A stretch of 63,425 nt of DNA, the filler included, from Reclinomonas americana ATCC 50394 (lineage: Eukaryota): assembly GCA_048213135.1 (NCBI GenBank). It is 17 parts of 17 records of this genome, joined end to end, with 100 filler letters (N's around TTAATTAATTAA, not from the genome) between each part and the next. Parts side by side here need not be neighbours in the genome. Positions count along the whole stretch, not along the records: positions 1 to 6,582 come from AFZH01021253.1; positions 6,683 to 12,700 come from AFZH01021254.1; positions 12,801 to 14,074 come from AFZH01021255.1; positions 14,175 to 15,983 come from AFZH01021256.1; positions 16,084 to 21,738 come from AFZH01021257.1; positions 21,839 to 24,184 come from AFZH01021258.1; positions 24,285 to 28,740 come from AFZH01021259.1; positions 28,841 to 31,075 come from AFZH01021260.1; 9 more parts are not named here. One strand, given 5' to 3'. The translations under genes and the position numbers were made by a program. Below are positions 421 to 59,268 of the stretch, one piece after another (the stretch's first letter is position 1; each line of letters starts with the position of its first letter). The notes under the pieces were generated by a model. That model worked only from the letters and a program-made list of their open reading frames with translations, was not told where the DNA came from and searched no databases.

Positions 421-3400
421 CTAATTTTTGTCTTCCTGAAGGTAAAGAGACATGTAAGAGAAAATGGATTATCGTTTCTCTCTCACTCCGTCTTCCTCTG
501 CTTTCCCTTTCCTCTCTCACTTGCCTTCTCGCCCTTCTCCCTTTTTCTCCCTGTTGTGCTCAGTCGATTGCCGCCTCGGATGACTGGGTCGCCCACCCAA
601 ACCTAGCTTACCGCCCACCCGCGGACGTGACTGCCGCTGCGTCCATCTTGGCGTCGGCAGCTGCCGGCAGTGCCAGCTCTCCCTTGGCGCCTTCGACATT
701 GGTTCGTTGCCCAATGCAGTCTCTCCAGCAAAATACCCAACACTCACCATCTCGTGTGTTGGCAGTCGAGGATGGATTCCAGTCTCCGTCCAATGTCGCG
801 TCAGGCATCGGGATCGGTAGCGGCAAACATGGTTTGGTCACATTATTGGTTGCCGAGTTGCTGGACAACGACTAATTCTGCAACAGCGACGCACCGAGTG
901 GTTGAGATCTGCGGATCGCAAGACCACGACGTCGCTTGTGATTTTCATGTCGTTCCCAAGTTGAGTTGCACTGCATTACGTTGCGCATGTCTGCCATCTG
1001 CAAACTCAAGTTACATGCTGTAGATTGCCAGGCCCCTGTGCTGCGTCCCCACGACTCTGTGGTCATCAAGGACCCCAACGGCTTCATTGTCGTGTCGGTG
1101 GAAATCGGCCGCCACCACGACAGCGCACTGACGGCGAGTGGCAATGGCCGCTACGCTGTAATTCATGGTACGAATCGCGTCCTCGTGTGATCATGCCCTT
1201 CTGCAGTCCTCTTGTCGTTGACTCCTTTCTTCTCCTATCCTGTTTCCCCCTTCCCTCTGCCTTCCTTGCGTCCTCTTACTGCACTCTCTCATTCTCATCT
1301 CCCTTGCTCACATCATTCCTTTTTCGCCCCTACTCCCCATCTCATCTCTTCTTCCTTCCACTGTTAGTCCCCTTTCCTCTCCACTTTCATGTCTCCCCGT
1401 ACCAACCCTTTCCCGCCTTTCTCACCTCTTCTCACTCTTCTTCTTTCGGCTGCTCTCTCATTTTCCTCTTTCTTTCTCTTCCTCACCCCTCCGTTGCTCC
1501 ATTTCCCTCTCACATCCTTCCCTTTTTTCGCCCCTGCGCCCCATCTCATCTCTTCTTCCTTCCACTGGTATTCCCTTTTCCTCTCACTCCGTTCTCTCCC
1601 CGTGCCACCATTTCCCTCCCTTCTTCTCCCTCGCCCCCTTCCCCACCCCTTCTCATCTCTTCGTCCTTTCGCTGCTCTCTAATTCTCCTCTCCCTTCCTC
1701 TCCCTCACTCCTCCGTTGCTCCCTTTCCCTCTGACATCCTTCACATACTCTCCAGCTCATCTCTTATTCCCACCACTGTTAGTCTCTTTTCCTCTTACCG
1801 CCTTCTATCCCCCTACCCACCCTTTCCTTCCTCGCCCCTCCCTCTCTCGCTCTTCCCCCTTCTCCCCTCCCTCCCTTTCCCCCTTCTACCCTCCGTTCCT
1901 GTCTCTCACCCCCCTTTCCTTCTCACCCCCTTCTCCTCTCACATCCTTTCCCTCTCTCCCTTTCTTCTTCCTTCCGCTGTTCTTTCTTTCTCTTGTCCCT
2001 TATCTCCCCGTACCACCTTTCCCCTCCCTTCCTCTCCCTCGCCCCGTTTCCCTCGTTCCCCTTTCCTCCCTTCGTCTCCTTCCCCTCCCTTCCCCTTTCC
2101 CGCCCCCTTCCCCTTCCCTTACCCCTTACCCCGTCCCCCTCACCCTTCCCCTCTCACCCCTTCCCCTTCACCCCTTCGCAGTCCCCTTCTCCGTGGCCGG
2201 CCGCACCAACCTACGCCAATACAAAATCGAACTGCACTTGCGCCAGATCGGTGCAGACGGCGAGGACAGCGCCCTCTCGATCCTGCCCTTTGAGTTCCCC
2301 CGCTTCCCGGAGGCCTCCGAGCAGGGCGTCTCCGGTGCCGTCAGAGCAGACGCCGATCACCGCATCGATCTCAGCGTTCGTCGCCGCCAGCTGCACGCTC
2401 ACGTGCTGCTCTCTGTGAGTAACCTTTGTGTGGAAGCCTTCGTGCTGGGTGACTGATCTGTTGCGCAGGGCATCGAGGACGCTCGTTTCCTGGTGCTGTG
2501 GAGCGACAGTGGGGTATCGGAACCAGTTCTCCTCGATCCTCTCATCAGCACTGTGGGCGAGGTCTGCCGAATGCAATCTCAAAAGAGTTCTCTGTGCTGT
2601 CTCTGAAGTTTGTGTCGTCACACAGGCTCACTTGGTGTTCGAAATGGTCGACGAGCCAGCCGGTCTCGCCTTTTACTGTCAGCAGCTGCCGCCCAAGCAG
2701 CGATTGGTCTTCACCGTGGCTCCCACGATGCAGAGTGCCTCTGCTCGTCGTGGTTCCAGTGCCGGGTATGGTGATGGCATTTCCTCATCTTTTGATGGTT
2801 CGGTGTCAACATTCTGTGTCGTCTCTCCTTGTCCTTTCTCAACGCACTCCTGTCCGTCACAGGCATCCTGCGTGTAGAACTCGTGCATCGCTCGATCGCC
2901 AATCACATTCGCATGCTCAACGCCGGTGCGCTTCTTTTCATGGTGTTGGTGTGTCGCGCATCATCTCACCGCTTTGAGTTGCAGCGCAACGACAATTTGC
3001 AAACGCACCTTCCGCGCACGAGGAGAGCGTGACGCGAGTGTTGAGACAGCCGGCGGTGCTGGACGAGCCCAAGTGCTGGCGCATTGCGCTCTCGCAGCTT
3101 GTCACCTCGATGCAAGCGTCGCCATTGTCGTTTATTGAGAGCGTGTTGCAGCCGACGTTGCCGGAGAGCAGCTCTTTGAGGGTGCGTGCTGCGCGCGAGT
3201 TTTGCCTCTTATTCAGCAGTCGCTGACGCTGGTGTTTCTGCAGTTGACAAACACGGTGCCGGAGGTGGCCGGCCAAGTAATCGACATCTCAGCCAATGTG
3301 GAACGAATTACTCCCAATGTTTGTACATATTATCTCTCTGTCCTCATCCTCATTGTCTCAACGAGTGTGTTCTCCTCACAGCAATCGCTGAAGATGTGGT

Positions 3401-15815: not shown

Positions 15816-15878
<63 letters not shown>

Positions 15879-16111
15879 AGAGAGAGAGGTAGAGAGGTAG
15901 ACGTAGTGACGACGAGAGAGAATAAAGTAAGAAGACGTAGACGAAGTAACGGTAGTCGTACGCGTTACGTCGTACGTACCGGANNNNNNNNNNNNNNNNN
16001 NNNNNNNNNNNNNNNNNNNNNNNNNNNTTAATTAATTAANNNNNNNNNNNNNNNNNNNNNNNNNNNNNNNNNNNNNNNNNNNNTACGTACGTACGAGACG
16101 AGAGAGACGAG

Positions 16112-16181
<70 letters not shown>

Positions 16182-16352
16182 AAGAGAGAGAGAGAGAGAG
16201 CAAAGACACGTCAGTCAACTCCACACAGAGCTCCTCTCTGAGCATCTTCCCTCCCTCCCTCTCTCTCCCTTCCGACTCAACTGTAGACTGCTCTCTGCGC
16301 GTCCACCAGCGCCTCCGCTGAACTGATCGCCGCGGGAGCCCTTGGCGCCCAT
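6251..16352 (-). CDS. FNIP: Folliculin-interacting protein (FNIP/Lst4 family), multi-exon, spans four gaps
   Basis: Spliced motifs match FNIP blocks in the right order: FRTL|LFQGTRVSGNILLYDS (N-terminal longin), HPVWLEM, LLTLSVTAVLSHHRSWM, AQVLELFG, VRIVVVGGDRPLVLQLLKALSFFVR, GYSLFGGYGDTYCPELVLQG, ACCIVIDTDDNTVEV, SPYVASMF..LLEHFEDRLADLFSK..VLDVLGVTVEDIDFL. ATG at 16352 (MGAKGS..), stop at 6251-6253. Confidence 0.85.
6583..6682. other. Assembly gap with artificial six-frame-stop linker (first of 16)
   Basis: N-run + TTAATTAATTAA + N-run, 100 bp in total, repeated identically at every gap. Confidence 0.97.
10700..11630. repeat. GA-rich 20-bp minisatellite in an FNIP intron
   Basis: Dozens of gagaggaagagcgagacaac / gagagaaagagcgagacaac units. 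Confidence 0.9.
11960..12240. repeat. 16-bp minisatellite in an FNIP intron
   Basis: gaaggagatgggcgaa / gcaggagatgggcgaa units. Confidence 0.9.
12860..13620. repeat. Degenerate tandem repeat, about 120 bp unit (intronic)
   Basis: Recurring cgctaacggcacaggccaagg..ccctcacaaa..acttcatca..gcacccgctg..ctcactgcaacggcggcc blocks. Confidence 0.65.
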
Positions 16353-19956: not shown

Positions 19957-19993
<37 letters not shown>

Positions 19994-25900: not shown

Positions 25901-27772
25901 AGCATTGCTTCGCTCACCCTTCTCTTCTCTGCAGGCCATTGACAGCCTGCTGGTATCTGAAGGCTCCTCGCCTGCAACGATTCGCTACGTCAGCAAACCG
26001 GTGACGAGCGAGAAGATCACGTCTGCCTTGTCGGGAGTGGACGACGATTCGTCGTTGCATCCGGTTCTGCGTTCCACGTCGCTCACAGTTGCGTGTCGAC
26101 TTCCGCAATAATCCGCCGTGCACCTTCTTGCTGAAGCTTTCTTTCTTCGTGCGCAGTCGCATCTGCAGCACTCGCGTGTGCCGAAACAGGGTGCGCCTTC
26201 GGCAGCCTTCTCCGAGGTGGATCCGACCGACTCGCAAGTCGACGGCGGAGACCTGCCAAGTGTGACTCCATCGCCGAGTGTCTCTCCCCAGCCGGCGTCG
26301 CGCAGGACTCTGGTGACGGCGACCATGTGGCAGAGACCGCCACGGATTCTGGTGGTGGAGGACAATCGTGTTAATCAGAGAGGTAATTGGCGGGGAAAGG
26401 GAGAGGGAAAGAGAGGGAAGCAGCAAGAAGTAAGCGACGTCTGCATAATCTCGTTTCTGAGAGAGTTTGGAAATTGAGAAGGGCAGTCTCCTCACACCTC
26501 CTCTTCTTCTGTGTGCAGTCATTTGCCGCATGCTGTCGCAGCTGGGCTGTGACTACGAGGTGGCAGAGGATGGAGTCGAGGCTCTGGAAGTGCTGCAGCA
26601 AAAGTGGCCGTTTGACATGGTGTTTACGGATGTAATGGTTTGTGGATGAGGGATGCGGAGTGTGAGAAAGAGTGGGAAAGTGGAGAACTAGTGTGGGGCA
26701 GATTGGTGGGTGGAATAGAATGTGGGTGTAGCGCAGAGTGGGAAAGTGGAGAACAGCACTCTTGGGCAGAGTGGTGGGTGGGATAGCGTGTGGGAAGCGG
26801 CATGATGTAACGGTGGGAGAGGTCAGAGAAACAGAGCGTTGCACGAGTCAGAGAGTGGAAAAGGCACGTGCTCCAGAAGTGCAGCGCGAAGCTTGGTATT
26901 CTTGACAGTGTAGTGTGAGAGAGATTTAGTGGTCATCAGCGCTACTTTGCACGCTCCCGAGGTTGAGTTGGCCAGAGAAACTAAGTGGAACAACTACTGG
27001 ACTGCTGTGCATTATGGGGACTGAGAGTTGATTGGAAGAGTGGGAATGATGCAGCGACAAGACGGCTGTGCGCTCTGTCAGTGACGGCTGTGGAAGCAGA
27101 ACGTCGGCATTGTTAGTTGAGAAGAAATTGGCGCCCTGTGAGGCGAGTGATAGTGCGAGAGATTTTGAAGGAAAGGCGAGGATTTGCACGCAGAGGACGG
27201 AATGTGAGGGAAAAGCAGACCATCATCAAGGCGCCCTTGAGGCAATGAAGGAGAGACGAGGATTTGCACGCAGAGGAAGGAGTGCGAGGAATAAGCAGAC
27301 CATCACCAAGCCGCCCTTGAGACTTTGATGGAAATAGAAAGTAATGCGAGACCATCACGTGCGTTCGTACTTTCATCTCAGTGCTCTCTTGTCCCATTCC
27401 AGATGCCACGCATGAACGGCGACGAAGCCGCGCGCCGGATGCGTCAACTCGGTCCGCCGATGGGAGCGCTGCCAATCGTCGCTGTCTCCGCCCACAGTCT
27501 CGATAGGTGCTGCCTTGATGTGAACTTCGTTGCCTGTAGTTTCCCCAGCTTATCTCTCTGCCTTCCCACGCAGTGTCGAGAGCATGGACTCGGCGTTGGA
27601 CATGCGCCTCCTGAAACCAGTCCGCCACGATCAAGTCCGCGCCGCGCTCATGCAGTTCCTGACTCCTCTGCTGAATTCAAGTTCGACAACGGCAGCTGAA
27701 TCACCACCCGCGGCCTCCGCCACCCTTCCACCACCACTAGAACACTCGCGCAATGTTGTCACCCCCACATGA
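18300..27772 (+). CDS. Hybrid sensor histidine kinase (PAS-HisKA-HATPase-pseudo-receiver-receiver)
   Basis: ATG in cccgccaccATGg context. PAS/PAC-like DDREVSLTG..DADGNRRIVKTVKMPF..LGMGIDETE; H box KTEFLAAVSHE|IRTPLNGLLG; LLDSHLDLVKMEAGK; N box DRLKLRQ|ILINLVSNALRHT; G1 VRDTGEGIP..IF; GEINVSSKLSEGTT (G2 box lost in the gap at 24185). Receiver RILVVEDNRVNQ..FDMVFTDVM|MPRMNG..PIVAVSA..LLKPV. Stop at 27770-27772. Confidence 0.92.
25600..25885. repeat. About 24-bp minisatellite, about 11 copies, in a kinase intron
   Basis: gagtgagcagagcggagcgaagcagt / ..gaaggaat units. Confidence 0.9.
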
Positions 27773-42783: not shown

Positions 42784-45690
42784 ATGGATCCAGAGACCGA
42801 CGATGAACATGAACGCCTACAGAGCATTGTGTTCCCCCCACTCAGCGAGAGCACCAACATCGTCCTTGTTGCGTTCTACTTCCCAGTGCACTCTCTCTTC
42901 CGTGTGATTGCATTCTCGCTCGCTGGCCTTTGACGATATCCCTGTGTGTACTCCTTGTTGCAGTGTTTACCAATGGCATGGGAGGTGCCGACCGTCAAGA
43001 GAATTGTCCGCATGCTTTTGAGTCTCTCGCGTCTGGATCGCGCCGATGAGCGCTCTGTCAGCTTCTCGGTGGTGCTGTACGGCCAGCACACGCCGGCGGC
43101 GATCTTCCAAGTGCTCACCAACGACCGCCAGCCCCTGTTTGACTTTGCGGCGCGCGCCGAGGACTATACCGAAGCGCCTCTGGATGTGGATGCGGAGGGC
43201 GACGCGGCTGTGGCGGCCACCCAGAATTCCGGTGTAGCCAGCGCTATCAAGATCGCTGCGCAACACCTGGACACGTACGTGCGACAGAACTCCAAGCGTC
43301 TTGTGGTGTTGGTGACTGTAGGTTGGTGTCCACTTGCTTGCGCAGCTGCTTTGTCGTCGTTGTTTTCCTCGATCTGACAACAAGTACTTCACTTGCAGGC
43401 GCGCTGCCATTCCCGCAGATTGCCAAGATGGAGGCCAAGTGCTCGCTGCACGACGCCAAGATCCCGACCGTGGTGTTCGCCCTGCGCGCCCCTCGCGACG
43501 ACGCTGCGCGTGAGGACATCAAGCTGCTCGGCACCTCGCAGCGCAACACATTCTTTGTCAACTCGCGAGAGCAGGTCGAGAAGTTGTTTGCCCCGGCGTC
43601 GGTCACCAGCAATTCATACATACGGTGTGTTTGTGCGCTCTCATGTCGCGTGCAGTTGTCGTGTAACTCGCTCATAGTCCACTTCACAGCCCCTCGGTGA
43701 CCACTGGAAAACGCACATCGTCCGAGCTGATGCTCAAGTTCTCGATGCCGAGCGGGTCGCTGCTGGACTTCAACCTCGACAGGATCCACATTGAGCGCAA
43801 AGTGCGAAACCGCTGGCCCGACGGCAAAATGCGAGGTATCGTGTGGCTGCGTTCTTCAGCAATTGCAAAAACCTAGGCCTCTTCGTGCAGTCACACTCAC
43901 ATGTCGTGCACGGCTTCTGCTACAGTGCATTGGAAGATTGTGGGTGAAGCCGACGTGAGCATCAACGAGTACTGGGTGAGCGGGCTGCCTGCCGATGAAC
44001 TGGTGACGCTGCGCGTGCAAGGCATTCGTGCAGATAACACGCGGACTCCGTTCTCGGACGAGACCGATTTCTTCACTCTCCGTGGTGCGTTTCACACTCA
44101 CCCTTTATCACCGGTGTGCTCGTCGCTCACCTGTGTATACCGCAGCACCTCGCATCTATCAAGACAACTTGGAGGAGGCACGCAAAAACACTCTGCAGAC
44201 CATCAACGAGTACCAGCGCAACTGCCCCGCTGAAGTGGGTGCCTACAACATTCTGTTTGTCGGTCTCAGAGTTGCGTTGTGCGCCTGCGACCACCCACCA
44301 CACGACGCTCGTCGTTGCTGACTCTTCCATGTGTTGGTGTGATAGAATGGTGCAAAGAGTGCCACCATCAACACCATGGCCAGCGCACTGAACAACCGCT
44401 TCTTCTCGGTCGCACCGAGCTGCCCTTCAGATGATGGTGTGACGCAGAAGAAGGTCACCTACGCCGTGGCGGACCATCTGAACCTGATTGACTGCTGGGT
44501 GAGTGTTGAGACCTGTCATGCGCGACCCACTGCTTCGCTATTCACGACGCTCACTGTGCACATATCAGGGCTACCTCTCGAACGCTATCCGTCAGCCCGG
44601 CAACGCGGAAGGCGTCTACCGCCCACCAGCAGAGCCTACAAAAACCAACTTCTCGAGGGACGTGACAAAGGCCCTGGTGGATGGCACCCTGCCGGACGAC
44701 TTTCGATTCAACGATGATCTGAAGCGCGTCGAGAGGAAGGGCGGCTTGTGGAGGGGCGGTATAGTCCGCCGTGTGCATGGCGTCATTCTGTGCTGCCACG
44801 TGAACATGCTGGGCCACGAGGACAAGATGTTGGCGTTGCGCGAGTTGGGCCAGCTTCTCAGCGAACAGGGCCTGCAGCCGATGGTGGTTCTGGCCGGCAT
44901 GGACTTGGTCGACCCGCGTCTGCGACACAAGAACGCCATTCGCGCTCTCGAGAGTGACTTGGTGGACAAGACGCTGGAACGCTTTGCCGAACAGAGCGGT
45001 ATCCGGCCATCAACTCTCTTCCCAACTGTATCGTACACTGGGCCGAACTCGTACCGCGATGAGGGAGCGGAGGTGCTTGTGCTGCTGCCGCTGATGCACG
45101 CATTGTCTGCTGCAGAGGATTTTGTTAAGCACCTGATTCGCAAAGCCGGCGGCAGCATGACAGGCTGCAGCGCTCGCCCACAGCGACCTTCGTGGACAGC
45201 CAGTAGTCCCGGCGCCAACTCTGACGATGACTCGGATTCGGAGGCGTCGCCGCCGAGAGCGCGAGTGAACATGGCCGCAGCGCCCCTCAGCGCTCGCGGT
45301 GGTCGTCGCCAGTCGGAACAGGCGCCGCTGTCTGCAGCAGTGTTCGCGCAGCAGCCGTCTGTACCGGTATTTGCGCAGCCGCCGGTGCCCGCACCAGCGA
45401 TCGCCAGTCCGTTTGGTGGTGCGGGTGCTGCCGGCGTGGCTGGTGCTTGGGCACGCCCGACCTTTGACTTCGCATCACCTGTGCATGCGTCGCACTCGAG
45501 CGCCAACAGCAGGGTGACGCTACCGCAAAGCGATGTGGCTTCGGTGACGTTACACTCGCCGACCACTCCGGTGAACGCTTCGCGATCCGGTAGCTCCTGT
45601 CTCCTGGTCGGCTCCTTGGTAGCTACTTCGGCTCCGTCTGGTCGCACACCGGCCGGCGACGTTCGACCTAGATCGCGAATTCGTGTTTAG
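42784..45690 (+). CDS. vWA - FN3 - IFI44-like GTPase paralogue with altered Walker A
   Basis: NIVL|CLP..FSVVLYG..RLVVLVTVG (vWA); VSGLPADELVTLRVQGI..RTPFS (FN3); NILFVGLR|NGAKSATINTM, LIDCW|G, LVDGTLPDDFRF, VHGVILCC, PMVVLAGMDLVD, LFPTVSYT..EVLVLLPLMHALSAAEDF; then a Pro/Ala/Ser-rich tail. The start could extend to ATG 42623. Confidence 0.8.
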
Positions 45691-48806: not shown

Positions 48807-48863
48807 TATGCGCAGTCTTCGCGGGTCCTGTGTGACACACTCTCTGCATATTGTCAACAGTCC

Positions 48864-51300
48864 ATGCGCAGACTGCTGCTTCTGTTACTGCTTCTGGCAG
48901 TCACAGTACGCGCACAAGGTCCCTTGCCTCCACCGCATACCAACCTTCCACCACGCCACTCACTCTTCCATTTGCAGAGTTGCTCACAGATCAACACTTG
49001 CACACTCACACTGACTGGTCGTCGTCGTCGTCGTCCCCGCGTGTGCGCACTGGTGACTTGTGGTTGCTCCGTGAACGCATCCCCGACGCGTCTGGAGTGG
49101 AAGCATTCCTCTTTGATGCGGATGAGACGCACAAGTCATTCGCGCTCTCGTTGAATGGCTTTGATTGGCTGCAGGATGCTGGTACGAGTGTCTCTCTGCT
49201 GGTGCTGCTGTTACATAACGCATGTTGAGAGCTTCTCTCGTGTGTCTACAGTGGCAGAGGCTGTGGAGAAAGAGAAGCTGGGTCTCGGAGCGTTGCATAT
49301 GACGGTGTATGTCATGCGGAAAAAGTTTGAAGATGAAGGCGTGATGCCCGAGTTGTCGTCGATGAAGGTGCGTGTGACGACTGAGATGCTTTGTTGCGCC
49401 TTGTTGCGTGACTGGGAGACAGACGGCTGCACCGGGAGTTCGTACTGCGGGCAAGCGACCGGTGGTGCCGAGGCGCACGGTGGGACTGTTTGTGGATGGT
49501 CGCGTGCATACGTTGTTGGTGGAGGCTGATGGCTCGGATGTGGAGGCTGCTGGTGCGTGCGCGCAAGGGTGAAGATGCCTTTTTTCGTGTGACTGATAGC
49601 CTCACGTTGTCGTCGGCCAGTGGCCAAGTTCGTGTCGACCAGGACGATTGAGAGAGAATTCGTGCCGGCAATGGTGCACGCTGCGCGTATGCAGCTGGAG
49701 GCACACGATCCGGAGGTACGTCACTCTCCCTTGGGCGTTCCCACCCTCTCGTTGCGCTGTCTCACACGTTCGTACACCACAGCCGACGCAGTTGCCGTAC
49801 AGCATGGCCCGCATGCAGTACCTCCGTAAGGGCTTTGTGGTGCCTCTCACCGAGCCCGCCATTGTCGAGGAGAATCCGGTGGTGGTCATGGTGGATGCAC
49901 TGCGTAACCACGTGGGCGTGCTTGGTGCGTGGTCACCCTGCCTTCCCTCCCGTTCCCTCCACTTCCCTCCCCTTCCCTCCCCTTTCCCCCCTTTCCCCCC
50001 TTTCCCCCCTTTCCCTCCCCTTTCCCTCCCCTTTCCCTCCCCTTTCCCTCCCCTTTCCCTCCCCTTCCCTCATCCACTGCTTTGCCTGACACTTGATGGC
50101 AGCCGACGACCCGCGAAAGCCTTCGTACCGCTGCTCCTTCATTCAGCATCCGTTCCCCCAGAGGAAGAAATGTGCGCCGTTGATTGCCGCTGCACGCAAG
50201 TGGGTAGAGAACAATGTGGAGGTGCGTCTCCACATCACTTCTTTCCTCGCCTCAGTTCACTCCTCTCATCGCCTGTGATGCAGCGTGTCGCCACACACTT
50301 CCTGCCCCCGCCGCCACCCACATCGGAACCACCACCGCTGCCGCCACCGCCACCGCGCAGTCCCTACTTTATCGGTTCCGACACCATGTCGGGCGCCGAA
50401 CTTGCCGCGCTTTCCGCCCGCGTGCGCAGCGTCGGCCGTGTGCGCCCGTGGGAGTGCTCGTACCGCAACGGACTGAAGGAGAGCACCGGTCGCAACGAGC
50501 CGTCGGCTCCCGAAGACAACCTCGCCAGCTCCTTGTTTGTCAAGTCGCAGCCGCGACCCGTGGTTGGCCAACTGGCCACGATCGTGCTCGGCGTGTTCTC
50601 CATGGACGACAAGGAGGCGCAGCGTGACGACTTGCGCGAGACGTGGATGCGATACCCCAATGTGTATCACCGCACGCGCAACCCCGAGGGCTCGGTGCAG
50701 GTGGTGTTCGTGTTGGGTCGGCCGCGCAACGCGGAGCTGGCCAGCCGGTTGCGTGCCGAGCAGGAGAAACACGGCGACCTGTTCTTCTTGGACATTCGGG
50801 AGAACGTGAACGCCGGCAAGATGCACGACTGGCTGTCGTCGGCCGCAGATCACTTCCGCGGCACGAACGTGCGCTACGTGGGCAAGTGCGACCACGATGC
50901 CTTTGTGCGCACCGTACAGCTGGAGCGCGAGCTGTCCAAGCTGCCGCGTGAGCGGCTGTACTGGGGTGCCTCGCTCGTCGGCTATCGGGACGGCGTGGCG
51001 CTGGACTACATCATCTCCTTCACCAACCTGCTGTCGTGGGATCTGGTGGAGTGGCTGCGCCGTGCACCGCTGGGCAGCCTCGAGCACCTCGGCAACGACG
51101 ACTGCGCCACGGGTTCATGGTTCGCCATGGAGAACATGCCGGTGCACATGGTGGGCGACAGCCGCTTCCACGACTACCTCGGCAAGCTGCTGGCCATCAT
51201 TCCCGAACCGCTCAGCGAGCAGACAATCGCCGTGCACCGCGTTGACAGCCGCGACTTGCTGGATCTTCTCATGCGCCAGTACCCGTCAGAAGACGAATAA
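48864..51300 (+). CDS. GT31 (Galactosyl_T) glycosyltransferase, copy 1
   Basis: Signal peptide MRRLLLLLLLLAVTVRAQ; multi-exon N-terminal domain; Pro linker; IVLGVFS..RDDLRETW..VVFVLGRP..LRAEQEKHGDLFFLDIRENVNAGK..YVGKCDHDAFV..LSWDLVEW..DDCATGSW. Confidence 0.88.
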
Positions 51301-51409
51301 TATGCGTCCTATGGTGGTGGAATACAGCGGCATGCATGACGATCCTCCGATATCGATTACATGAACGTTCGCGACCCCGTCCTCTTCATCAACCGACTCG
51401 CTGGCATCC

Positions 51410-53823
51410 ATGCCACGCACACAGTCAATGCCGCTTCTGCTGCTGCTGCTACTGATCACCGCAGTGTGCGCACACGATGGTACGATGCACACACGCACAG
51501 CAAACACAGTGTTCGCGCGCTTTCTTACACATGCTCTCTCTCTCACACACACACACAGCGACTCACACTCACGAGAACGATCACACACCACCGCGCCCAC
51601 CATCGCCATCATGGACACTGTCAACAGGGTCATCGTCATCGGCGAGACAACGTGTGGGCGACATGTGGTTGCTGCGTGAGAAGGGATCGCACATTCCGGG
51701 CTTCACTCTGACTGTGTACGATGCGGACGAGAAGTTCAAGACCATTCCCATTCCCTACGCTGGCTTTGTGTGGTTCGAGGACGCTGGTGAGGGAGCGAGT
51801 GAGTGAGAGAGAAAGAGAGATCGCGCGAAACAGCTTACGATTCCTCTGGATGGCATGCAGTGGTGGATGCGATCACCAAGGCAAATGCAGGCTTCAATGC
51901 TGCCCATGCGGGACTGCTGGTGTGTCGGCAGCTCACTACGCGAGACGGCGTGTGGCCGGAGCCTGCGCAGCTCAATGTTGCGTGCACACGTGCTTGTTTT
52001 CGTCCGCTGTGTTGTCTGTTGACTTTTGTTGTGCAGGCGGTGGCACCGGGAGTTCGCACCTCGGGGAAGCGTCCGGCTGTACCGCGGAGGAGAGTGGGTC
52101 TCTTTGTGGACGGCCATGTGCGCATCTTGTCGGTGCGAGTGGACGGTCGTGATGTGAACGAAGTCGGTATGTATGTCTCTCTGTTGTTTTCCTCTCTTGT
52201 CTCTTCCGCTCATTCCTGTGGACGACAGTGTCGTCGTTTGCGTCGGCGAATGCAATCGAGTCGGTGTTTGTGCCTGCCATGGCACTCGCAGTGCATCGTC
52301 AGCTGCAGACAAACGCCGAAGAGGTTTGTTTGTTGCACGCCATCGGTTTTGTCATTAGGGAGAATACTGTCGTCTCACCTCGCTGTGCGTGTTGCAGCCC
52401 CTGGATGTGCCTATCGGCATATCCCGCCTCCAGCACCTCCGCAAGGGCTTCGTGGTGCCACTCACGGAGCCCGAGGAGGCCGTTCAGCATCCGGTGGTGG
52501 TGATGGTCGGCGCCTTTCACCACGATGTGAACACGCTTGGTGCGTCCACTTGTCTCCTGTTTGGCATCCCTCTCCCTCACACTCTGTCGTGTGTTTGTTT
52601 GCAGCCGACGACCCACTGCAGCCTTCGTTTCGTTGCACGTTCATCCAACACCCTTTTCAAGAGAGGAGCAGATGCGCACCACTCATCGCTGCAGCGCGCA
52701 CGTGGATCGCGGCGAATGCAGAGGTTTGCGCTCATATCCTCCCTCTTCATCCCTCTCACTCACTCATGGCTCACCGTTCATGACTCCGCAGCGGGTCGCC
52801 ATTCACTTTCAGCCTCCACCACCACCCACCCTGGAGCCGCCACTATTGCCACCACCGCCACCACGCAGTCCTTACTTTGTTGGCTCGGACACCATGACTG
52901 GCGCCCAGCTGCTGGCACTTGCCACCAGCGGCCACCCAAACGTGGGTCGCATACGACCGTGGCGGTGCTCGTTCCAGACCTTTGATGGCTTCACGGGGCA
53001 TGCTGAGCGAACCCGCTACACCGTGTCGGATCCCGAAGACAACGTCTTCAGTTCCATGTTTGTCAAGTCGCAACCACGACCCGTGGTTGGGCGGATGGCC
53101 ACCATTGTGTTGGGGGTGTTCTCCATGGATGAACGGGAGGCGCAGCGTGACGACGTGCGCCAGACGTGGATGCGATACCCCAACGTGTATCACCGCACTC
53201 GCAACCCGAGTGGCTCGGTGCAAGTGGTATTCGTGTTGGGTAGACCGCGCAACGTGACTGTGGCACGACGGTTACGTGCGGAGCAAGAGAGACACGGCGA
53301 TCTGTTCTTTGTGGACATTCTCGAAAACCTCAACTCGGGCAAGATGCACGACTTTCTCGTGGCGGCAGCGGATCACTTTCGCGGCACCAACGTGCGCTAC
53401 GTGGGCAAGGTTGACCATGATGCCTTTGTGCGCACCGTGCAGCTGGAGCGTGAGCTGTCCAAGCTGCCACGCGAAAGACTCTACTGGGGACCGGGACTGG
53501 TGGCGTACCGTGACGGAGTGGCTCTGGACTACACAGTGAGCTTCATCAACCTGCTGTCGTGGGATCTGGTGGAGTGGGTGCGACAGGCACCGTTGGGCAG
53601 CCTGGAGCACTTGGGACTCGACGACTGCACACTGGGTTCGTGGTTTGCCACCGAAAATGTTCCGGTGCACTTTGTGGGCGACAGCCGCTTCCACGATCTG
53701 TTCGGCGCCGCCGACGCCATCATCTCGGAGCGACTGACAGAGGAGAGCATCGCGGTGCACCGAGTGCACACTGGTGAAATGCTGCGACTGTTCATGCGCC
53801 AGTTTCCACCTGACGATGAGTAA
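51410..53823 (+). CDS. GT31 glycosyltransferase, copy 2
   Basis: Same exon structure and motifs as copy 1 (ENLNSGK, YVGKVDHDAFV); stop at 53821-53823. Confidence 0.88.
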
Positions 53824-53876
53824 AATCCATTTTGAGTGAGAGAGCGATTTGGTTGAAAAAAACGAAGAAGACGGAC

Positions 53877-56281
53877 ATGCATATGCGACGAGTGCTCCCA
53901 CTTGTGTTGCTTGTGCTTCTGCTTGTCACTGCTGCCTGTGCACATCAAGGTGGGGTGTTCACACAGTCATACACGGAAGAGCATGCAGGATTCTCACTCT
54001 CACTCTCACGTGCATGCAGCAACTCACACTCGTGAAGAGAGTCGCACATCATCACCACCAGCGCCACCACCTCGACCACCGCCGACATGGACATTGTCGA
54101 CGCCGGCACCAGAGGGCGACACGTGGCTGCCTTCCGAGTCAATAGGCTTCAATCTCATTGTGCACGACACGGACGAGGAGGAGCACACGATCTTCATCCC
54201 ATACGCTGGCTTCACGTGGTTCGAGGACGCAGGTGCGACATGGGGGAGTGGAAGTGAGGGGGCGGGGGAGTGACTTGACATGCTTTTTGTTTTTGGTGTC
54301 TGTTTTGATATCAAGTGCGCTTGCACACACAACAAAACAGTGTTGGATGCTGTCAGCAAGGCCAAGATGGGATTCGGCGCCGCTCAGCAGGGACTGGGAT
54401 TGTGTCGGCGTCTCACTGCAGAGGAAGGCTCGATGCCGAAGCCTTCACAACTTGGTGTTGCGTGCCTGTGATGCGCGCGTGGCGTGAATGCTGCTGTTGA
54501 CTTTGTTGTGCGCAGGCGGTGGCACCGGGAGTTCGTTCCTCGGGGAAACGTCCGGCTGTGCCGCTGCGCAGAGTGGGTCTCTTTGTGGACGGCCGTGTGC
54601 GCGTCTTGTCGGTGCGAGTGGACGGTCGTGATGTGAACGAAGTCGGTGCGTGCGTTTGTGTGTTGTCCTCTCTTTTGTTCTCCTCCTCACTCGCTGTGTG
54701 TTGACGACAGTGTCGTCGTTTGTGTCGGCGAATGCAATCGAGTCGGTGTTTGTGCCGGCCATGGCAATGGCAGTGCACCACCAGCTGCAGACGAACGCCG
54801 AAGAGGTTTGCATTTGTCGTCGTTCACTGTTGGCATCGCCTTGCTGAACGTGCGTTTGCGTTTAGCCACTGGAGACACCGTACAGCATGGCCCGCATGCA
54901 GTACCTCCGCAAGGGCTTCGTGGTGCCTCTCACCGAGCCCGAGTTGGCCGTTCAGCATCCGGTGGTGGTGATGGTCGGCGCCTACCACCACCATGTGGAC
55001 TTGCTTGGTACGCGTCCACTCGACTCTCTCATCCCCATTCTCTCCCTCCTCACACTCTTGCCTGTGCTTGTTGGCAGCCGACGACCCGCTGCAGCCTTCA
55101 TTCCGCTGCTCACTCATTGGGCGCCCCTTCCCGGAGCGGAAACGATGTGCGCCGTTGATTGCCGCCGCACGCAAGTGGATCGAGAACAATGTGGAGGTAC
55201 GTGAGCCGTTCCCTCAGCTCCCTCCTCCTTCCCTTCTCACACGTTGACAATGGCGCTGCAGCACGTCTTCACGCACTTCCTGCCTCCACCGCCACCCACA
55301 CTTGAGCCACCACCACTGCCGCCACCACCACCACGCAGTCCCTACTTTGTCGGCTCGGACACTATGACTGGCGCCCAACTGCTGGCGCTCGCCGACAGCG
55401 GCCACCCGAACGTGGGTCGCGTACGACCGTGGGTGTGCTCGTACCGCACCATCGATGGTTTCACCGTGCATCGCTACACTGGACTGGCCCCCCAAGACAA
55501 CGTCTTCAGCTCCCTGTTTGTCAAGTCACAGCCGCGTCCGGTTGCTGGTCGACTGGCCACCATTGTGTTGGGTGTGTTCTCCATGGATGAGAACGAGGCG
55601 GATCGTGACGATGTGCGCGAGACGTGGATGCGCTACCCCAATGTGTATCACCGCCCGTACAACCCAGAAGGCTCGGTGCAGGTGGTATTCGTGTTGGGCC
55701 GACCTCGCAATGCGGATCTGGCCCGACGGCTGCGTGCCGAGCAGGAGAAACACGGCGACCTGTTCTTCTTGGACATTCTCGAGAACATGAGCTCCGGCAA
55801 GATGCACGACTTCCTCGCCGCGTCGGCCGATCACTTTCGCGGCACGAATGTGCGCTACGTGGGCAAGGCCGATCACGACGCCTTTGTGCGCACCGTGCAG
55901 CTGGAGCGCGAGCTGTCGAAGCTGCCGCGTGAGCGTCTGTACTGGGGGCCAGGATTGGTGGCGTACCGCGACGGAGTGGCTGTGGAGTATGCGGTCAGTT
56001 TTTTGAACCTGCTATCGTGGGACTTGGTGGAGTGGGTGCGCCGTGTGCCGCTGGGCAGCCTGGAGCACCTGGGACTCGACGACTGCACGCTGGGTTCGTG
56101 GTTCGCGATGGAGAATGTGCCGGTGCACTTTGTGGGCGACGCCCGCTTCCACGATCTATTCGGCGCCACCGATGCCCTCGTCGAGGCGCGGCTGACCGAG
56201 AGGAGCCTTGCAGTGCATCGCGTGCGCGGCGGCGACATGCTGCGACTGTTCATGCGCCAGTTTCCGCCGGAGGATGAGTGA
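53877..56281 (+). CDS. GT31 glycosyltransferase, copy 3
   Basis: Same exon structure and motifs (MRRVLPLVLLVLLLVTAACA, ENMSSGK, YVGKADHDAFV); stop at 56279-56281. Confidence 0.88.
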
Positions 56282-56339
56282 GCGGTTGTGTAGTAAACGT
56301 AAGATGTAGATTTATGGTTGCAGTGCCGATGTTCTCCGA

Positions 56340-56430
56340 CAAGCAAGCCCAGCTGCAGTCTTTGTGACCAATTCCAACCATTCTGCAAGAACAACAACTT
56401 TACTAATCCAAACAGCAACACAGCTGCATG

Positions 56431-56462
<32 letters not shown>

Positions 56463-56925
56463 CTTTACTNNNNNNNNNNNNNNNNNNNNNNNNNNNNNNN
56501 NNNNNNNNNNNNNTTAATTAATTAANNNNNNNNNNNNNNNNNNNNNNNNNNNNNNNNNNNNNNNNNNNNAAATCAATGCAAGCAAGTCCGGGAAGGAACT
56601 GAGATGCATTTGAGAGGTTGTTGTTGGTGATGGTGTTGTTGTTGTTGCTCACGGAAGTTGTCACTGCCGTCTGTTGATTCTGGCAACGGCACCGCAATGC
56701 GCCGACCAGATGTAATGGTCGTGGCGAGCGGCACAGCTGCACAGTTTCGACAGCAAGCGATCCGTGTCGTCACTGCTTCGACGCTCCTGAGGTGAACGGC
56801 CATACACCAAGTCGGCCACGTTGTCACCAGTCCGTTTCGGGACGATGCCACCGGAGCCAAACACCAGTGTATAGAAGACAACTGATCATCATCTTGAGTG
56901 AGACCAATTCCGACCGTTCTGGTTA
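56340..56925 (+). repeat. Member of the dispersed intergenic repeat family plus (AAC)n, interrupted by a gap
   Basis: caacaactttactaatccaaacagcaacacagctgcatga (identical to 37948-37987); tgatcatcatcttgagtgag (cf. 37988-38007); gaccaattccaaccattctg and gaccaattccgaccgttctg. Confidence 0.7.
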
Positions 56926-57318
56926 CAAAGCTTCGAACAAGTCGAAAACTGCGATCCACGTCGTGCGGAATGAAACGCACTTGCATAGACGCACTGCGTT
57001 TTCTGCGGTCGTATCGGCTAATCCAACCCAGGGAAATCGAATTCGAAGCCGTGCAAGCGATTGCGAAGCGCTTGCAATTGCCAGGTCCGGATCGCAAACA
57101 CAGACGCCTTTGGTTCGCCTCGCGGGTCCATACACTGTCCACCACCCAACCTCTTGCGTACCGCAGCCGTTTCCTCACCGCGGGGTTGTGGCGCGGTTTT
57201 ATAATTCCGCCGGACAATTCAATTCCACTCGCCGGCCCAACCAACCGAAAGCAATCAAGTAAAGCGCGTCTTCATAGATCATCACGAGCGGTCACTGTGA
57301 CTTAGATAGAGGGTGGCC

Positions 57319-59268
57319 ATGAGTGTCAAGTTCAACTGGGCACGGCTGAGCTCCACTGCCACGAGTCTGGAGCTCACCAACACTCTGAACACATTTTTCG
57401 CCGCTCAACAGCAACAACAGTCGACTTGGCCTTCCTTTCTGGGAGCCGTTCGTGTGACCGATGTCTCTCTTGGTCCGGTGAGTCACACACATACACACAC
57501 ACGCATAGTGAGGGAGTCAAGAGTCGGAGAGTGAGAGAGAGGCGCTCGTGTGCGCGTGCGTGTGCGCGTGTGTGATGTCGTCAATGCTCGTCCTTTCAAA
57601 CCGTTGTGTTGTCTGCCTTCNNNNNNNNNNNNNNNNNNNNNNNNNNNNNNNNNNNNNNNNNNNNTTAATTAATTAANNNNNNNNNNNNNNNNNNNNNNNN
57701 NNNNNNNNNNNNNNNNNNNNGCCGCCGCCGGCTGCTGTCCGCGCACCGGCTGCAATGGCGGCGGCTGCGGCTGGGCGACCGGCAGCACGTCTCCCGCCAA
57801 GACCACATGCGCGGCCACAGCAACAACAACAGCAGCACCATTACATGCAGCAGCACGCGGCTGCAATGGCGATGATGTCGCGGCGATTGGTCGATGAGGA
57901 CGATAGTGATAGTATGGCTGAGGTCGATGTGGGCCTGCGTGGTCCGGTGCGGCTCGTGTCGTCGCGCTCAGCGTCGAGCTTGAATGATTTGCACTCGGGT
58001 CCGCCGTTGACGCCCACCAGCTCGGACAAGTCGGCGGTGAGCGATGCGGACTCAATGTCGCTGGGCTCGAGTGATTCCATGTATGGTGATTCGCGGCCGG
58101 CCACGCCCACGCCGCTGTCGGAGCTGGGAGGCGCTGCTTCTTCGTCTTCTACAACGACGACGACAACTTCGACTGCCACGCACTCAAGGCATCCCTCGGC
58201 GTCGGCCTCCAACGCGGGCTGGTCGCAGCTGGCCGGCTCGCTGGCGTGCATGTCGGCGTTCTCGATGCCGGGCATGATGCCGACCCGTTCGCGAGTGTCG
58301 CGTGCCGATGCGCGTGAGAACGTGCAGGCCAGCATTGCGTTGCGCTGGCTGTCACAGCTCTCGTTCAGTCTCGAGACGGAGCTGGTGCTGTTGAATGAGC
58401 CTGTGCCGCGCTTCTTGACGCTGCCGCTCCGCATCACCGTCTCCAAGTTGTACCTGTGCGGTCGGCTCGAGGTCGCTCGGAGTCGCACGCACCTGTCCAT
58501 GTACTTTCACCGCGCCAAAGACCCAGTTGCGTTGTACTCTCCCTCACTTCTCCCTCCCTTCTCCCTCCCTCCTCCCTCTCTCCGATCTCCCTTCTCACAT
58601 TGCCACCTTGCCACCTTGCCACTCACAGTCGGAGAGGAGTCCATTGCGGTCGGTGCACTTCTCGTGTGAAATGGGCGACGCGTCGGCCAAGTCGTTGAAG
58701 TTGCCGGCACACGTCAGCAAGTTCTTGGTGGAGCAGTTGAAGAGGTGGATTGTGGCGCAAATGGTGTTCCCCAACGCGTTGGTGTTGCCACTGCCGCCGG
58801 ATGCCGACGAGGATGCCGCGGCGGACAGTCGGCGGGGCGAAGCGCTGCTGGAACAGGAGGCAGCGCGAGCGTTTACCGACATGCCGCAATTCACCGACGA
58901 TTCGACGTTTGATGTGCTGGCCGAGAGCATCGACGACGACAGATTACCCCCGTTGCCTGCGATCCCCCTGCTGGCAGACTCGCCGCCGCCACCCACGTCA
59001 TCACTCGGCGCTCATCGCTCGCCGGTACCATTGCACCACCATCAGCATCATCACCACCACCACCACCATCAGCAACAGCAGCAGACGCCGCCACCACCAC
59101 CACCGCAGCGCGCTCCCCAACAGCAGGGCAGTCCACTCCCTGTGCATCGACCACACGTGCGCACCACCGGTGACGTGGACGCCGATTCCTCGGTGTCGTC
59201 GTACAGCACCAGCGACTCGGAGCAGCTCATCTCCACGGACACGATTGTGCATCATGCTCCGCGGCCTG
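57319..59268 (+). CDS. MDM12: ERMES SMP-domain subunit Mdm12 (3' end in gap)
   Basis: MSVKFNWARL..LNTFF..WPSFLGAVRVTDVSLGP matches the Mdm12 N-terminus. LETELVLLNEPVPRFLTLPLRITVSKL..SPLRSVHFSCEMGD..VSKFLVEQLKRWIVAQMVFPN matches the C-terminal SMP half. Confidence 0.82.

What the first reader, a model, noticed from the sequence alone, without database searches (positions are those of the whole stretch)
960..58628. Abundant second class of 5' splice site: +1-shifted donors (H|GTTGCGT, H|GTTGAGT) used only after exons not ending in G
Seen: most introns start GTGCGT, GTGAGT, GTACG, GTATG or GTTTG, with G at +5 and usually exonic G at -1. At least 21 introns (of roughly 120 by hand count) instead start GTTG[C/A/T]G. 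First-G positions on +: 960, 5854, 26088, 30342, 42868, 44271, 51977, 54457, 58526. On -: 7006, 7209, 7753, 8184, 16281, 35661, 35860, 36813, 39419, 40845, 41810, 42407. In all 21 the last exon base is A, C or T (A in about half), never G. Reading frames through conserved motifs (PAH SVLQ|PLTGW, FNIP DTDD|NTVEV, Mdm12, GT31) need cleavage before the GT, so these are GT-AG introns whose consensus sits one base downstream, with G at +6 instead of +5. Established: rare human atypical donors (ACA/GUUAAGU type) pair with U1 in a +1-shifted register. Inference: here that rare mode looks routine, implying flexible U1/U6 register use or variant snRNAs.
Basis: partly seen in the sequence, partly recalled or inferred. 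Interest (0 to 1): 0.85.

Follow-up and report, generated by a model that had tools for sequence, protein, structure and literature searches.

The report
Shifted second class of splice donors
About one intron in six in this protist scaffold starts GTTGCGT instead of GTGCGT, nearly always after an exon that does not end in G, as if the start signal were read one base further in; the only described counterpart found is a rare human one.

Summary
All 21 sites exist as written. GTTGCGT occurs 29 times against 9.7±3.0 in shuffles.

Support for the 21 listed sites:
- 8 junctions are confirmed to the residue by solved PAH structures, PAH homologues or paralogues within the window.
- 8 more are supported by a self-trained gene model, and 1 by hand.
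- 4 cannot be verified.

In the model's high-confidence introns, 36 of 42 ordinary donors (G at +5) follow an exonic G. Only 1 of 12 GTTG-class donors does (p=1.4e-6). A donor model blind to exon bases gives the same result.

The motif is the main consensus G|GTGCGT displaced by one base. The exon bases reject an unshifted or bulged reading and fit a +1 shift. However, duplex energies with a human-type U1 end are weak. No U1 or U6 gene, genome or RNA data were available, so the mechanism is inferred, not shown.

It is not U12-type and not a mobile intron family. No report of routine use of this mode turned up in four full-text searches.

Verdict: a new variant of a known kind, and interesting.

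The parts
36046..36813 (-). Class-2 intron in the PAH gene, cta|GTTGCGT...CAG|t, phase 2
   Evidence: The exons on either side map to 1pah_A residues 28-52 and 55-116. The split codon fills residue 54. Pfam Biopterin_H positions are 26-50 and 53-116. The alignment with 6 homologues is gap-free. Read-through meets TAG at once.
35798..35860 (-). Class-2 intron in the PAH gene, agc|GTTGCGT...CAG|c, phase 1
   Evidence: 1pah_A residues 55-116 then 122-164, with exactly the residues expected in between. Pfam positions 53-116 then 120-162. Gap-free against 6 homologues.
35655..35661 (-). Class-2 donor motif at the end of PAH exon 4; the acceptor is not in the contig
   Evidence: Homologues continue past the exon end while the read-through frame does not. 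The contig ends at 35485. No later PAH exon lies in the window. A GTGAGC lies 7 bases downstream as an alternative.
51977..52036 (+). Class-2 intron in GT31 paralogue B, aat|GTTGCGT, phase 0
   Evidence: Same alignment column and phase as the intron of paralogue A at 49368 (aag|GTGCGTG). Gap-free.
54457..54515 (+). Class-2 intron in GT31 paralogue C, ggt|GTTGCGT, phase 0
   Evidence: Same column and phase as in paralogues A and B. Gap-free.
49368..49422 (+). Comparator: ordinary donor aag|GTGCGTG in GT31 paralogue A, at the position where B and C carry class 2
42868..42963 (+). Class-2 intron 1 of the plus-strand vWA-like/P-loop gene, ctt|GTTGCGT, phase 0
   Evidence: Same column and phase as 42407 in the head-to-head paralogue.
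42013..42407 (-). Class-2 intron 1 of the minus-strand paralogue, gtc|GTTGCGT, phase 0
   Evidence: Read-through breaks the frame.
40778..40845 (-). Class-2 intron, caa|GTTGCGT, phase 1
   Evidence: Same column and phase as the ordinary donor gtg|GTGCGTT at 44085 in the paralogue.
44085..44145 (+). Comparator: ordinary donor gtg|GTGCGTT at the position paralogous to 40845
44271..44345 (+). Class-2 intron inside the P-loop, aga|GTTGCGT...TAG|a, phase 0
   Evidence: Its removal gives a gap-free alignment through the P-loop with the paralogue, which has no intron there.
41745..41810 (-). Class-2 intron, cca|GTTGCGT, phase 1, 66 bases
   Evidence: Gene model only. It is in frame and stop-free, so the frame does not require it.
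39337..39419 (-). Class-2 intron, gca|GTTGCGT, phase 1
   Evidence: Gene model. Read-through breaks the frame.
5854..5916 (+). Class-2 intron, cat|GTTGCGT, 63 bases
   Evidence: Gene model only. In frame and stop-free.
26088..26156 (+). Class-2 intron, aca|GTTGCGT, in the histidine kinase/receiver gene region
   Evidence: Gene model. The frame requires it.
30342..30415 (+). Class-2 intron, cat|GTTGCGT, phase 2
   Evidence: Gene model. The frame requires it.
58526..58628 (+). Class-2 intron, cca|GTTGCGT, in an SMP-domain (MMM1-like) gene
   Evidence: Gene model. The frame requires it, and coding scores are 74 and 72 nats on the two sides. Exon 1 hits Pfam MMM1 with E=1.8e-4.
8119..8184 (-). Class-2 intron, aac|GTTGCGT
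   Evidence: Gene model. The frame requires it.
7291..7753 (-). Class-2-like intron, taa|GTTGAGC, 463 bases
   Evidence: Gene model. The frame requires it, but the donor score is weak at 0.1.
6939..7006 (-). Class-2-like intron, aaa|GTTGCGA...CAG|c, 68 bases
   Evidence: By hand: read-through stops after 11 codons, and a 48-codon open stretch with coding signal follows the CAG. The exon-blind model also chose it.
7134..7209 (-). Ambiguous donor: ctc|GTTGTGT (reader) or, 3 bases on, gtt|GTGTTTT (my model)
   Evidence: Both keep the frame.
10195..10260 (-).
   Evidence: Chosen by the gene model in both runs. It is pyrimidine-rich and of typical length, but in frame and stop-free, so the frame does not require it.
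16275..16281 (-). Donor-like aca|GTTGAGT after a short MGAKGS... first exon; the acceptor lies beyond the contig end
960..966 (+). Donor-like caa|GTTGAGT with no coding support upstream
   Evidence: Not used by any model run.

Best explanation
What it is. These are genuine spliceosomal GT-AG introns that form a discrete second donor class, H|GTTGCGT. The class makes up about 15% of introns here, and nearly half of the introns that follow an exon not ending in G.

The pattern. The motif is the organism's main consensus, G|GTGCGT, displaced by one base.

Most likely mechanism (inferred):
- U1 snRNA pairs one base further downstream than usual.
- The intron's own first G takes the place normally held by the exonic G(-1).
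- The U of the GU is the single mismatch, and UGCGU pairs as in ordinary donors.
- U5, U6 and Prp8 then fix cleavage at the only GU available, one base upstream of where U1's register points.

What is shown: the class exists, its cleavage point, its dependence on the -1 base, and its heritability across paralogues.

What is inferred: the snRNA register.
For: Cleavage before the GT:
- 2 PAH junctions are colinear to the residue with solved structures, Pfam positions and 6 homologues.
- 6 junctions are colinear with paralogues within the window.

A discrete class rather than noise:
- GTTGCGT occurs 29 times against 9.7±3.0 in shuffles.
- 16 of 17 model-called members are exactly GTTGCGT, against 18 of 42 GTG[ACT]G donors that are exactly GTGCGT (p=0.0003).
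- From the position counts, independent positions predict about 1 GTTGNG donor in 62. Twelve are seen (my hand arithmetic).

Dependence on the -1 base, high-confidence set:
- After exons ending in G: 36 ordinary, 1 class 2, 1 other.
- After exons not ending in G: 6 ordinary, 11 class 2, 7 other.
- p=1.4e-6. The exon-blind donor model gives p=3.4e-7.

Register:
- The exon bases reject the unshifted profile by 15.4 nats (8 validated sites), 24.5 nats (18) and 33 nats (22).
- A at -1 in 11 of 22 (p=0.007) matches the -2 base of ordinary donors (A 40%, G 12%).

Inheritance: class 2 and class 1 occupy the same intron position and phase in paralogues (49368 against 51977 and 54457; 44085 against 40845). 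42868 and 42407 share class 2.

Precedent: a shifted U1 register is described for some human sites, and cleavage is set by U5 and U6 rather than by U1 (passages read in PMC4856993 and PMC11162779).
Against: - No RNA evidence exists for any junction.
- 8 of the 21 sites rest on a self-trained gene finder whose donor model learned the motif.
- The shifted exon profile is no better than background composition (0 nats). The positive support for a shift is therefore only the A excess and the G deficit at -1.
- With the human-type U1 5' end, class-2 duplexes are weak (+0.5 to -6.0 kcal/mol, against a mean of -6.2 for class 1). The best register is the shifted one in only 6 of 22 sites, the unshifted one in 2 of 22, and neither in 14 of 22.
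- By pair count, H|GTTGCGT in the shifted register is no better than H|GTGCGT in the normal one. Simple U1 pairing therefore does not explain why the class is so common.
- The near-invariant C at +5 would face a U or pseudouridine in a standard U1.
- One probable member follows a G.
- The sample is 63 kb of one scaffold, with two paralogue families contributing 8 sites.
Confidence: 0.55

Rival explanations
1. Bulged-U register. U1 pairs in its normal register (G+1 with C8, U+2 with A7), one of the two U is looped out, and GCGU pairs as usual.
For: GT-T-GCGT is GTGCGT with one extra T. A register with a bulge at +3 (or +2) is documented for human sites (PMC4856993, legend of Figure 1C). The spacer is always T: the GT[ACG]GCGT heptamers are at background level and never sit at coding drops.
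Against: In this register the exonic -1 base still faces C9, so G should be as common as in ordinary donors (83%). It is seen in 1 of 22 (binomial 1.3e-15). The unshifted profile loses to the shifted one by 33 nats. The folding program chose G+1:C8 in 2 of 22 sites.
Confidence: 0.1
2. An snRNA particular to this organism. Either a changed 5' end of U1 (or the U6 ACAGAGA region), or a second variant U1, reads GUUGCGU directly. The second class then reflects a second reader rather than a flexible register.
For: A standard U1 end pairs poorly with these sites in every register. The C before the conserved G is kept in 16 of 17 class-2 donors against 24 of 42 ordinary ones (p=0.006). That is odd if it faces a mismatch. 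Variant U1 genes are known in humans (PMC3561869 and PMC10870369, listings and abstracts only).
Against: No snRNA gene could be examined. A U1 fully complementary to GUUGCGU in the normal register would still favour a defined -1 base. That does not obviously predict the A/T/C mix seen.
Confidence: 0.17
3. The motif is read mainly after U1 or without it, by U6, U5, Prp8 or a protein. The dependence on -1 then reflects selection on overall donor strength, or how such sites arise by mutation, not a U1 register.
For: U1 only roughly marks the region, and U5 and U6 define the cut (PMC11162779). That paper also reports a non-canonical U6 register shifted by one base. The shifted exon profile is no better than background.
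Against: The class reproduces the whole main consensus displaced by one base, including A enrichment at -1. That is what a shifted U1 helix predicts. U6 would need an extra looped base next to the catalytic centre.
Confidence: 0.12
4. Annotation artefact. Many of the sites are not donors, or the real cut lies at a nearby GT or GC.
For: There are no RNA data. 4 of 21 sites are unverifiable or ambiguous. Several sites have GT 5 or 7 bases downstream. 4 of the 17 model-called introns are in frame and stop-free, of which 2 are confirmed by homology. GTTGCGT also occurs unused inside two exons, at 40922 and 50748.
Against: 8 junctions are exact to the residue against independent proteins or paralogues. 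A cut 3 bases later would add a residue at those junctions, and at 36813 it would include a stop. The heptamer is threefold enriched and sits at coding drops.
Confidence: 0.05

Closest known systems
Human atypical 5' splice sites read by U1 shifted one base downstream (Roca & Krainer 2009, NSMB; the paper is not held, and is known here only through passages in PMC4856993 and PMC11162779)
   Same: The GU is followed by the ordinary consensus displaced by one base. The conserved G lies at +6 instead of +5, complementarity in the normal register is poor, and cleavage is still at the GU.
   Different: In humans all proven non-canonical registers together cover 1.5% of 201,541 sites (PMC4856993). 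Here one such class covers 17 of 110 predicted introns. The local consensus is UGCGU, not UAAGU. No suppressor-U1 proof exists here.
Bulged-nucleotide and asymmetric-loop U1 registers (Roca et al. 2012, not held; Tan et al. 2016, PMC4856993, passages read)
   Same: The donor looks as if one base had been inserted between +2 and +5.
   Different: Those registers keep the normal exon pairing. Here the exonic G(-1) is almost absent, at 1 of 22.
Non-canonical U6 register at the STAT3 tandem donor D2 (PMC11162779, passages read)
   Same: The GU that pairs with U6 lies one base away from its usual distance to the cut.
   Different: In STAT3 it lies one base closer (+4/+5). Here it would lie one base further (+6/+7). 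STAT3 is a single human site, not a genome-wide class.
U12-type (minor) introns, including their expansion in Physarum (bioRxiv 10.1101/2020.10.12.336362, first part of the text read)
   Same: An abundant second intron class with its own extended donor motif.
   Different: The U12 donor motif [AG]TATCCTT occurs once in the window, [AG]TATCTTT never, and neither at a predicted donor. Class-2 introns otherwise resemble ordinary ones in length (median 67 against 65) and 3' end (CAG in 13 of 14 against 43 of 52).

Membership tests
U2-type GT-AG spliceosomal intron | GT at the 5' end and AG at the 3' end | tested here: met
   All 17 model-called class-2 introns, and 6939-7006 read by hand, begin with GT and end with AG. 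Among the short ones, 13 of 14 end in CAG. Three listed donors have no acceptor assigned.
U2-type GT-AG spliceosomal intron | Removal restores a protein colinear with its relatives | tested here: met
   8 junctions: 2 in PAH, 2 in GT31 and 4 in the vWA-like/P-loop pair. The others rest on the gene model only.
U2-type GT-AG spliceosomal intron | Spliced junction seen in RNA | not testable with these tools
   No RNA run was listed.
U2-type GT-AG spliceosomal intron | Branch-site-like motif near the 3' end | tested here: inconclusive
   CTRAY lies in the last 50 bases in 3 of 14 class-2 and 12 of 52 ordinary short introns. The motif is weak in both classes.
+1 shifted-register 5' splice site | The ordinary consensus displaced one base downstream of the GU, with the conserved G at +6 | tested here: met
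   17 of 22 sites are GTTGCGT, against the main donor GTGCGT.
+1 shifted-register 5' splice site | Exon bases behave as if moved by one position: -1 resembles the ordinary -2 and shows no G preference | tested here: met
   At -1: A 11, C 5, T 5, G 1 of 22. At the ordinary -2: A 40%, T 26%, C 22%, G 12%. The shifted profile beats the unshifted one by 33 nats but only equals background.
+1 shifted-register 5' splice site | The shifted U1 duplex is more stable than the normal-register one | tested here: inconclusive
   With a human-type U1 end, the best duplex is shifted in 6 of 22 sites, unshifted in 2 of 22 and neither in 14 of 22. All are weak. The organism's own U1 is unknown.
+1 shifted-register 5' splice site | Rescue by suppressor U1 in the shifted register only | not testable with these tools
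   This needs a bench experiment.
Bulged-nucleotide U1 register | Normal exon pairing kept (G at -1 favoured) | tested here: not met
   G at -1 in 1 of 22 against 83% in ordinary donors.
U12-type intron | [AG]TATCCTT donor motif | tested here: not met
   One occurrence in the window, none at a predicted donor.
Mobile intron family (introner-like) | Sequence similarity between copies beyond the splice signals | tested here: not met
   The only class-2 to class-2 BLASTN hits are microsatellite matches between two long introns.

The most novel reading that the evidence does not exclude
In this unidentified protist the spliceosome routinely uses two registers at the 5' splice site. About one intron in six, and about half of those after exons not ending in G, is recognised one base out of step. 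The class is stable enough to be inherited across old gene duplicates. This would imply a lineage-specific change in U1, U6 or an associated protein that makes the shifted mode as good as the normal one. It would also offer a natural system for studying how U1 register and cleavage-site choice are uncoupled.
Probability: 0.45. Interest if true: 0.78.

Novelty: new variant of a known kind. Interest (0 to 1): 0.66.

Why it matters
In humans, all proven non-canonical U1 registers together cover 1.5% of 5' splice sites. A genome in which a shifted-looking class serves roughly 15% of introns would show that register flexibility can become a normal part of the splicing code.

It would give hundreds to thousands of natural test cases for how the cut site is fixed independently of U1. 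It also points to a concrete thing to look for: the 5' end of this organism's U1 and its U6 ACAGAGA box.

There is a practical side. Gene finders with a single donor matrix will miss or misplace about one donor in six in this genome. My own first models did so at 44271 and 7006.

Tried and rejected
Data that could not be had:
- Whole genome: none is held.
- RNA runs: none was listed.
- snRNA genes in the window: none at the gathering threshold. At E≤1 there were only microsatellite-driven matches.
- Relatives' DNA: two metagenome scans, with the GT31 and the P-loop gene alignments, found nothing.
- Earlier findings of this scan: nothing relevant.

Protein searches that led nowhere:
- A 61-residue PAH exon found no relatives.
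- The GT31 exon found one distant fungal protein among longer proteins.
- The ESM Atlas gave the family only.
- ORF-level Pfam was nearly empty: 3 GT31 hits plus weak ones among 150 ORFs.
- Exon-level Pfam gave PAH, HisKA, HATPase_c, Response_reg and MMM1 only. The FNIP label remains unconfirmed.

Gene finding:
- The first attempts were misled by long stop-free CT-rich intron ORFs.
- Models with introns spanning the artificial linkers were discarded. This removed the apparent intron at 33587 (atg|GTTGCGT), which remains uninterpretable.

Ideas dropped:
- Physarum-like U12 expansion.
- Diplonemid origin: the published consensus (G)/GTATG differs (PMC12621601, section 5 read).
- Mobile intron family.

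Literature limits:
- Roca & Krainer 2009 and Roca et al. 2012 are not held. I could not check the number of human shifted sites.
- I looked at no supplements of any paper.
- The organism was not identified.

Full report
**Material and limits.** The window is not one continuous piece of DNA. It consists of 17 contigs of 1.1 to 8.7 kb, joined by 16 identical linkers of 44 N, TTAATTAATTAA and 44 N. Genes continue across some linkers. A histidine-kinase ATPase domain, for example, starts before the linker at 24185 and its gene continues after it. Order and orientation therefore look real, but any intron drawn across a linker is an artefact. No whole genome is held and no RNA run was listed. The window holds no snRNA gene. 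Everything below rests on 63 kb of DNA, homologous proteins and statistics.

**The observation.** All 21 listed positions carry the stated motif. The last exon base is A in 11, T in 5, C in 5 and never G. Seventeen are exactly GTTGCGT.
- The heptamer occurs 29 times on both strands, against 9.69±3.03 in 100 dinucleotide-preserving shuffles. None of the shuffles reaches 29.
- The three sister heptamers with another base in third place occur 4, 10 and 10 times.
- I ran a test that needs no gene model beyond a codon-bias score. In it, 13 of 27 scorable GTTGCGT sites lie where coding signal is high upstream and collapses downstream. The figure is 0 of 24 for GT[ACG]GCGT, 20 of 66 for GTGCGT and 10% for all 7429 GT (Mann-Whitney 3e-5).

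**Gene models.** Long stop-free, CT-rich introns spoiled naive ORF-based training. One '433-codon ORF' at 35514-36812 is mostly intron. I therefore proceeded in steps:
1. I bootstrapped codon usage from the GT31 and PAH exons.
2. I ran a self-training Viterbi gene finder, with a flat GT donor at first. GTTGCG was already the commonest donor hexamer in that run, at 6 of 119.
3. I added a first-order donor model, strand reconciliation and, finally, contig-wise runs.

The final run introns:
- 68 have G at +5.
- 17 are of the form GTTG[ACT]G.
- 25 are other.

It misses 960 and 7006, and at 7209 it prefers an in-frame donor 3 bases downstream. It adds 10260. This finder learned its donor model from its own calls, which is a circularity. 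A repeat with a donor model that sees intron bases only gave 18 class-2 donors of 125 introns. That run included 7006, and also 41062, which the first run places inside an intron.

**Independent confirmation of the cut.**
- *PAH gene.* The exons flanking 36813 map to residues 28-52 and 55-116 of chain 1pah_A. The exons flanking 35860 map to 55-116 and 122-164. In each case the split codon and the unaligned end residues account exactly for the numbers in between. Pfam Biopterin_H positions tell the same story: 26-50, 53-116, 120-162. So does a gap-free alignment with six full-length homologues.
- *GT31 genes.* The three tandem genes share seven intron positions. At one of them, paralogue A has aag|GTGCGTG (49368). 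B has aat|GTTGCGT (51977) and C has ggt|GTTGCGT (54457). All are in phase 0 and gap-free.
- *Head-to-head vWA-like/P-loop pair.* 42868 and 42407 are both class 2 at the same position. 40845 (caa|GTTGCGT) corresponds to gtg|GTGCGTT at 44085. Removing 44271-44345 gives a gap-free alignment through the P-loop of the paralogue, which has no intron there.

A cut 3 bases later (a GC-AG reading) would add a residue at each of these junctions. At 36813 it would include a stop.

*The remaining sites.*
- 7006 reads well by hand as a 68-base intron.
- 7209 cannot be told from 7206.
- 35661 ends PAH exon 4 exactly where homologues go on, but the next exon is absent from the window.
- 16281 and 960 cannot be judged.

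**Dependence on the last exon base.** I defined a high-confidence subset of 62 introns: gene score ≥30, both flanking exons ≥50 bases with coding score ≥4, and intron ≤200 bases.

| Last exon base | Ordinary (G at +5) | Class 2 | Other |
|---|---|---|---|
| G | 36 | 1 | 1 |
| Not G | 6 | 11 | 7 |

- Class 2 against ordinary gives Fisher p=1.4e-6.
- All 110 introns give 1 of 17 against 51 of 68 (p=1.9e-7).
- The exon-blind model gives 1 of 13 against 34 of 39 (p=3.4e-7).

The single G case is 10260, ctg|GTTGCGT. It is a 66-base, pyrimidine-rich, in-frame and stop-free stretch in a low-complexity part of its protein. It is probable but not provable. 'Never G' should therefore read 'rarely G'.

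**Which register?** Class 2 equals the main consensus with everything after the GU moved by one base.
- If U1 stayed in register with one U bulged, the -1 base would still face C9 and should be G as often as in ordinary donors (83%). It is G in 1 of 22 (binomial 1.3e-15).
- The ordinary exon profile loses to the same profile shifted by one by 15.4, 24.5 and 33 nats, for 8, 18 and 22 sites.
- The -1 base is A in 11 of 22 (p=0.007 against 24%). This resembles the ordinary -2 base, which is A 40% and G 12% and normally faces U10 of U1.
- Class 2 is also stricter than class 1. The C before the conserved G is present in 16 of 17 against 24 of 42 (p=0.006). The exact consensus is present in 16 of 17 against 18 of 42 (p=0.0003). 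That is expected for sites that must make up for a mismatch. It comes with the caveat that the finder favours frequent motifs.

Several results speak against a simple story:
- The shifted profile is no better than background composition (0 nats).
- Duplex folding with the human-type U1 end printed in PMC4856993 gives weak helices for class 2 (+0.5 to -6.0 kcal/mol, against a mean of -6.2 for class 1). The shifted register is the optimum in only 6 of 22 sites, mostly those with A at +5.
- By pair count, H|GTTGCGT shifted is no better than H|GTGCGT unshifted, yet it is about twice as common after non-G exons.

Something specific to this organism's U1, U6 or associated proteins may be involved. 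This cannot be tested here.

**Other rivals.**
- *U12-type introns* are excluded. [AG]TATCCTT occurs once, [AG]TATCTTT never, and neither at a donor.
- *A mobile intron family* is excluded. The only similarity between class-2 introns is microsatellite sequence.
- Class-2 introns match ordinary ones in median length (67 against 65), pyrimidine content (0.61 against 0.58) and 3' end (CAG in 13 of 14 against 43 of 52).

**What is in print.**
- Passages read in PMC4856993 describe the shifted register, the register with a bulge at +3 (or +2), and an estimate that proven non-canonical registers cover 1.5% of 201,541 human sites.
- Passages read in PMC11162779 state that U1 only roughly marks the site and that U5 and U6 define the cut. 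They also report a one-base non-canonical U6 register at one human donor.
- The original papers of 2009 and 2012 are not held.
- Four full-text searches found no report of routine use of a shifted register in any organism, and no splice-site use of this motif. The searches were: shifted base-pairing with U1 snRNA; shifted register with snRNA, introns and genome; the motif itself; and noncanonical registers with eukaryotes and species.
- The library lacks most subscription journals, and the organism is unidentified. A description in its genome paper therefore cannot be excluded.

**Verdict.** The class is real, discrete and abundant, and it is tied to the last exon base. One-base displacement of the whole donor signal is the best description. 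A shifted U1 helix is the most likely but unproven mechanism.

Noticed in passing
window 6583-6682 and 15 further places: The window is 17 contigs joined by identical linkers (44 N, TTAATTAATTAA, 44 N). Genes continue across some of them, so it looks like a scaffold with placeholder gaps carrying a six-frame stop spacer.
   Followed up: yes
window 48808-56281 (+): Three tandem GT31 (Pfam Galactosyl_T) paralogues, 74-75% identical in the last exon, share seven intron positions and phases.
   Followed up: partly
window 39245-42494 (-) and 42784-45690 (+): A head-to-head pair of diverged paralogues (200 identical residues over 820 aligned columns) with a vWA-like front half and a P-loop region. 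Four intron positions are shared; each gene also has introns of its own. No Pfam family reaches its cut-off.
   Followed up: partly
window 35485-37621 (-): The PAH gene stops after exon 4 at the contig end. The catalytic exons that homologues carry further on are nowhere in the window. The gene is either cut by the assembly or truncated.
   Followed up: partly
window 35514-36812 (-), 9841-12405 (-), 965-2290 (+), 19180-20469 (+): The longest stop-free ORFs of the window are 71-79% pyrimidine on their own strand. The one at 35514-36812 was read base by base and is mostly a CT-rich intron. They can mislead ORF-based annotation.
   Followed up: partly
window 3143 (+), 7206 (-), 26368 (+), 51509 (+), 61528 (-): Five model-called donors start GTGTT, with no G at +5, and all follow a non-G base. 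They are either a further non-standard donor type or mispredictions.
   Followed up: no
window 43836 (+) and 2816 (+): Two model-called donors, gag|GTATCGT and tct|GTGTCGT, also have G at +6 and T at +7. They look like GTACGT or GTGCGT with one extra T further in. The first keeps G at -1, as a bulged register would.
   Followed up: no
window 40922 (-) and 50748 (+): GTTGCGT also occurs inside two well-supported coding exons, apparently unused. The motif alone is therefore not sufficient.
   Followed up: partly
window 33587 (-), 42646 (+), 59473 (+), 12699 (-), 17595 and 17602 (+): Further GTTGCGT copies lie outside confident gene models. Some sit next to contig ends or just upstream of a start codon. 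They may be donors of untranslated or missing exons.
   Followed up: no
window 16282-16352 (-): A short first exon begins MGAKGS. This recalls an N-myristoylation start (a motif I recall, not tested here).
   Followed up: no
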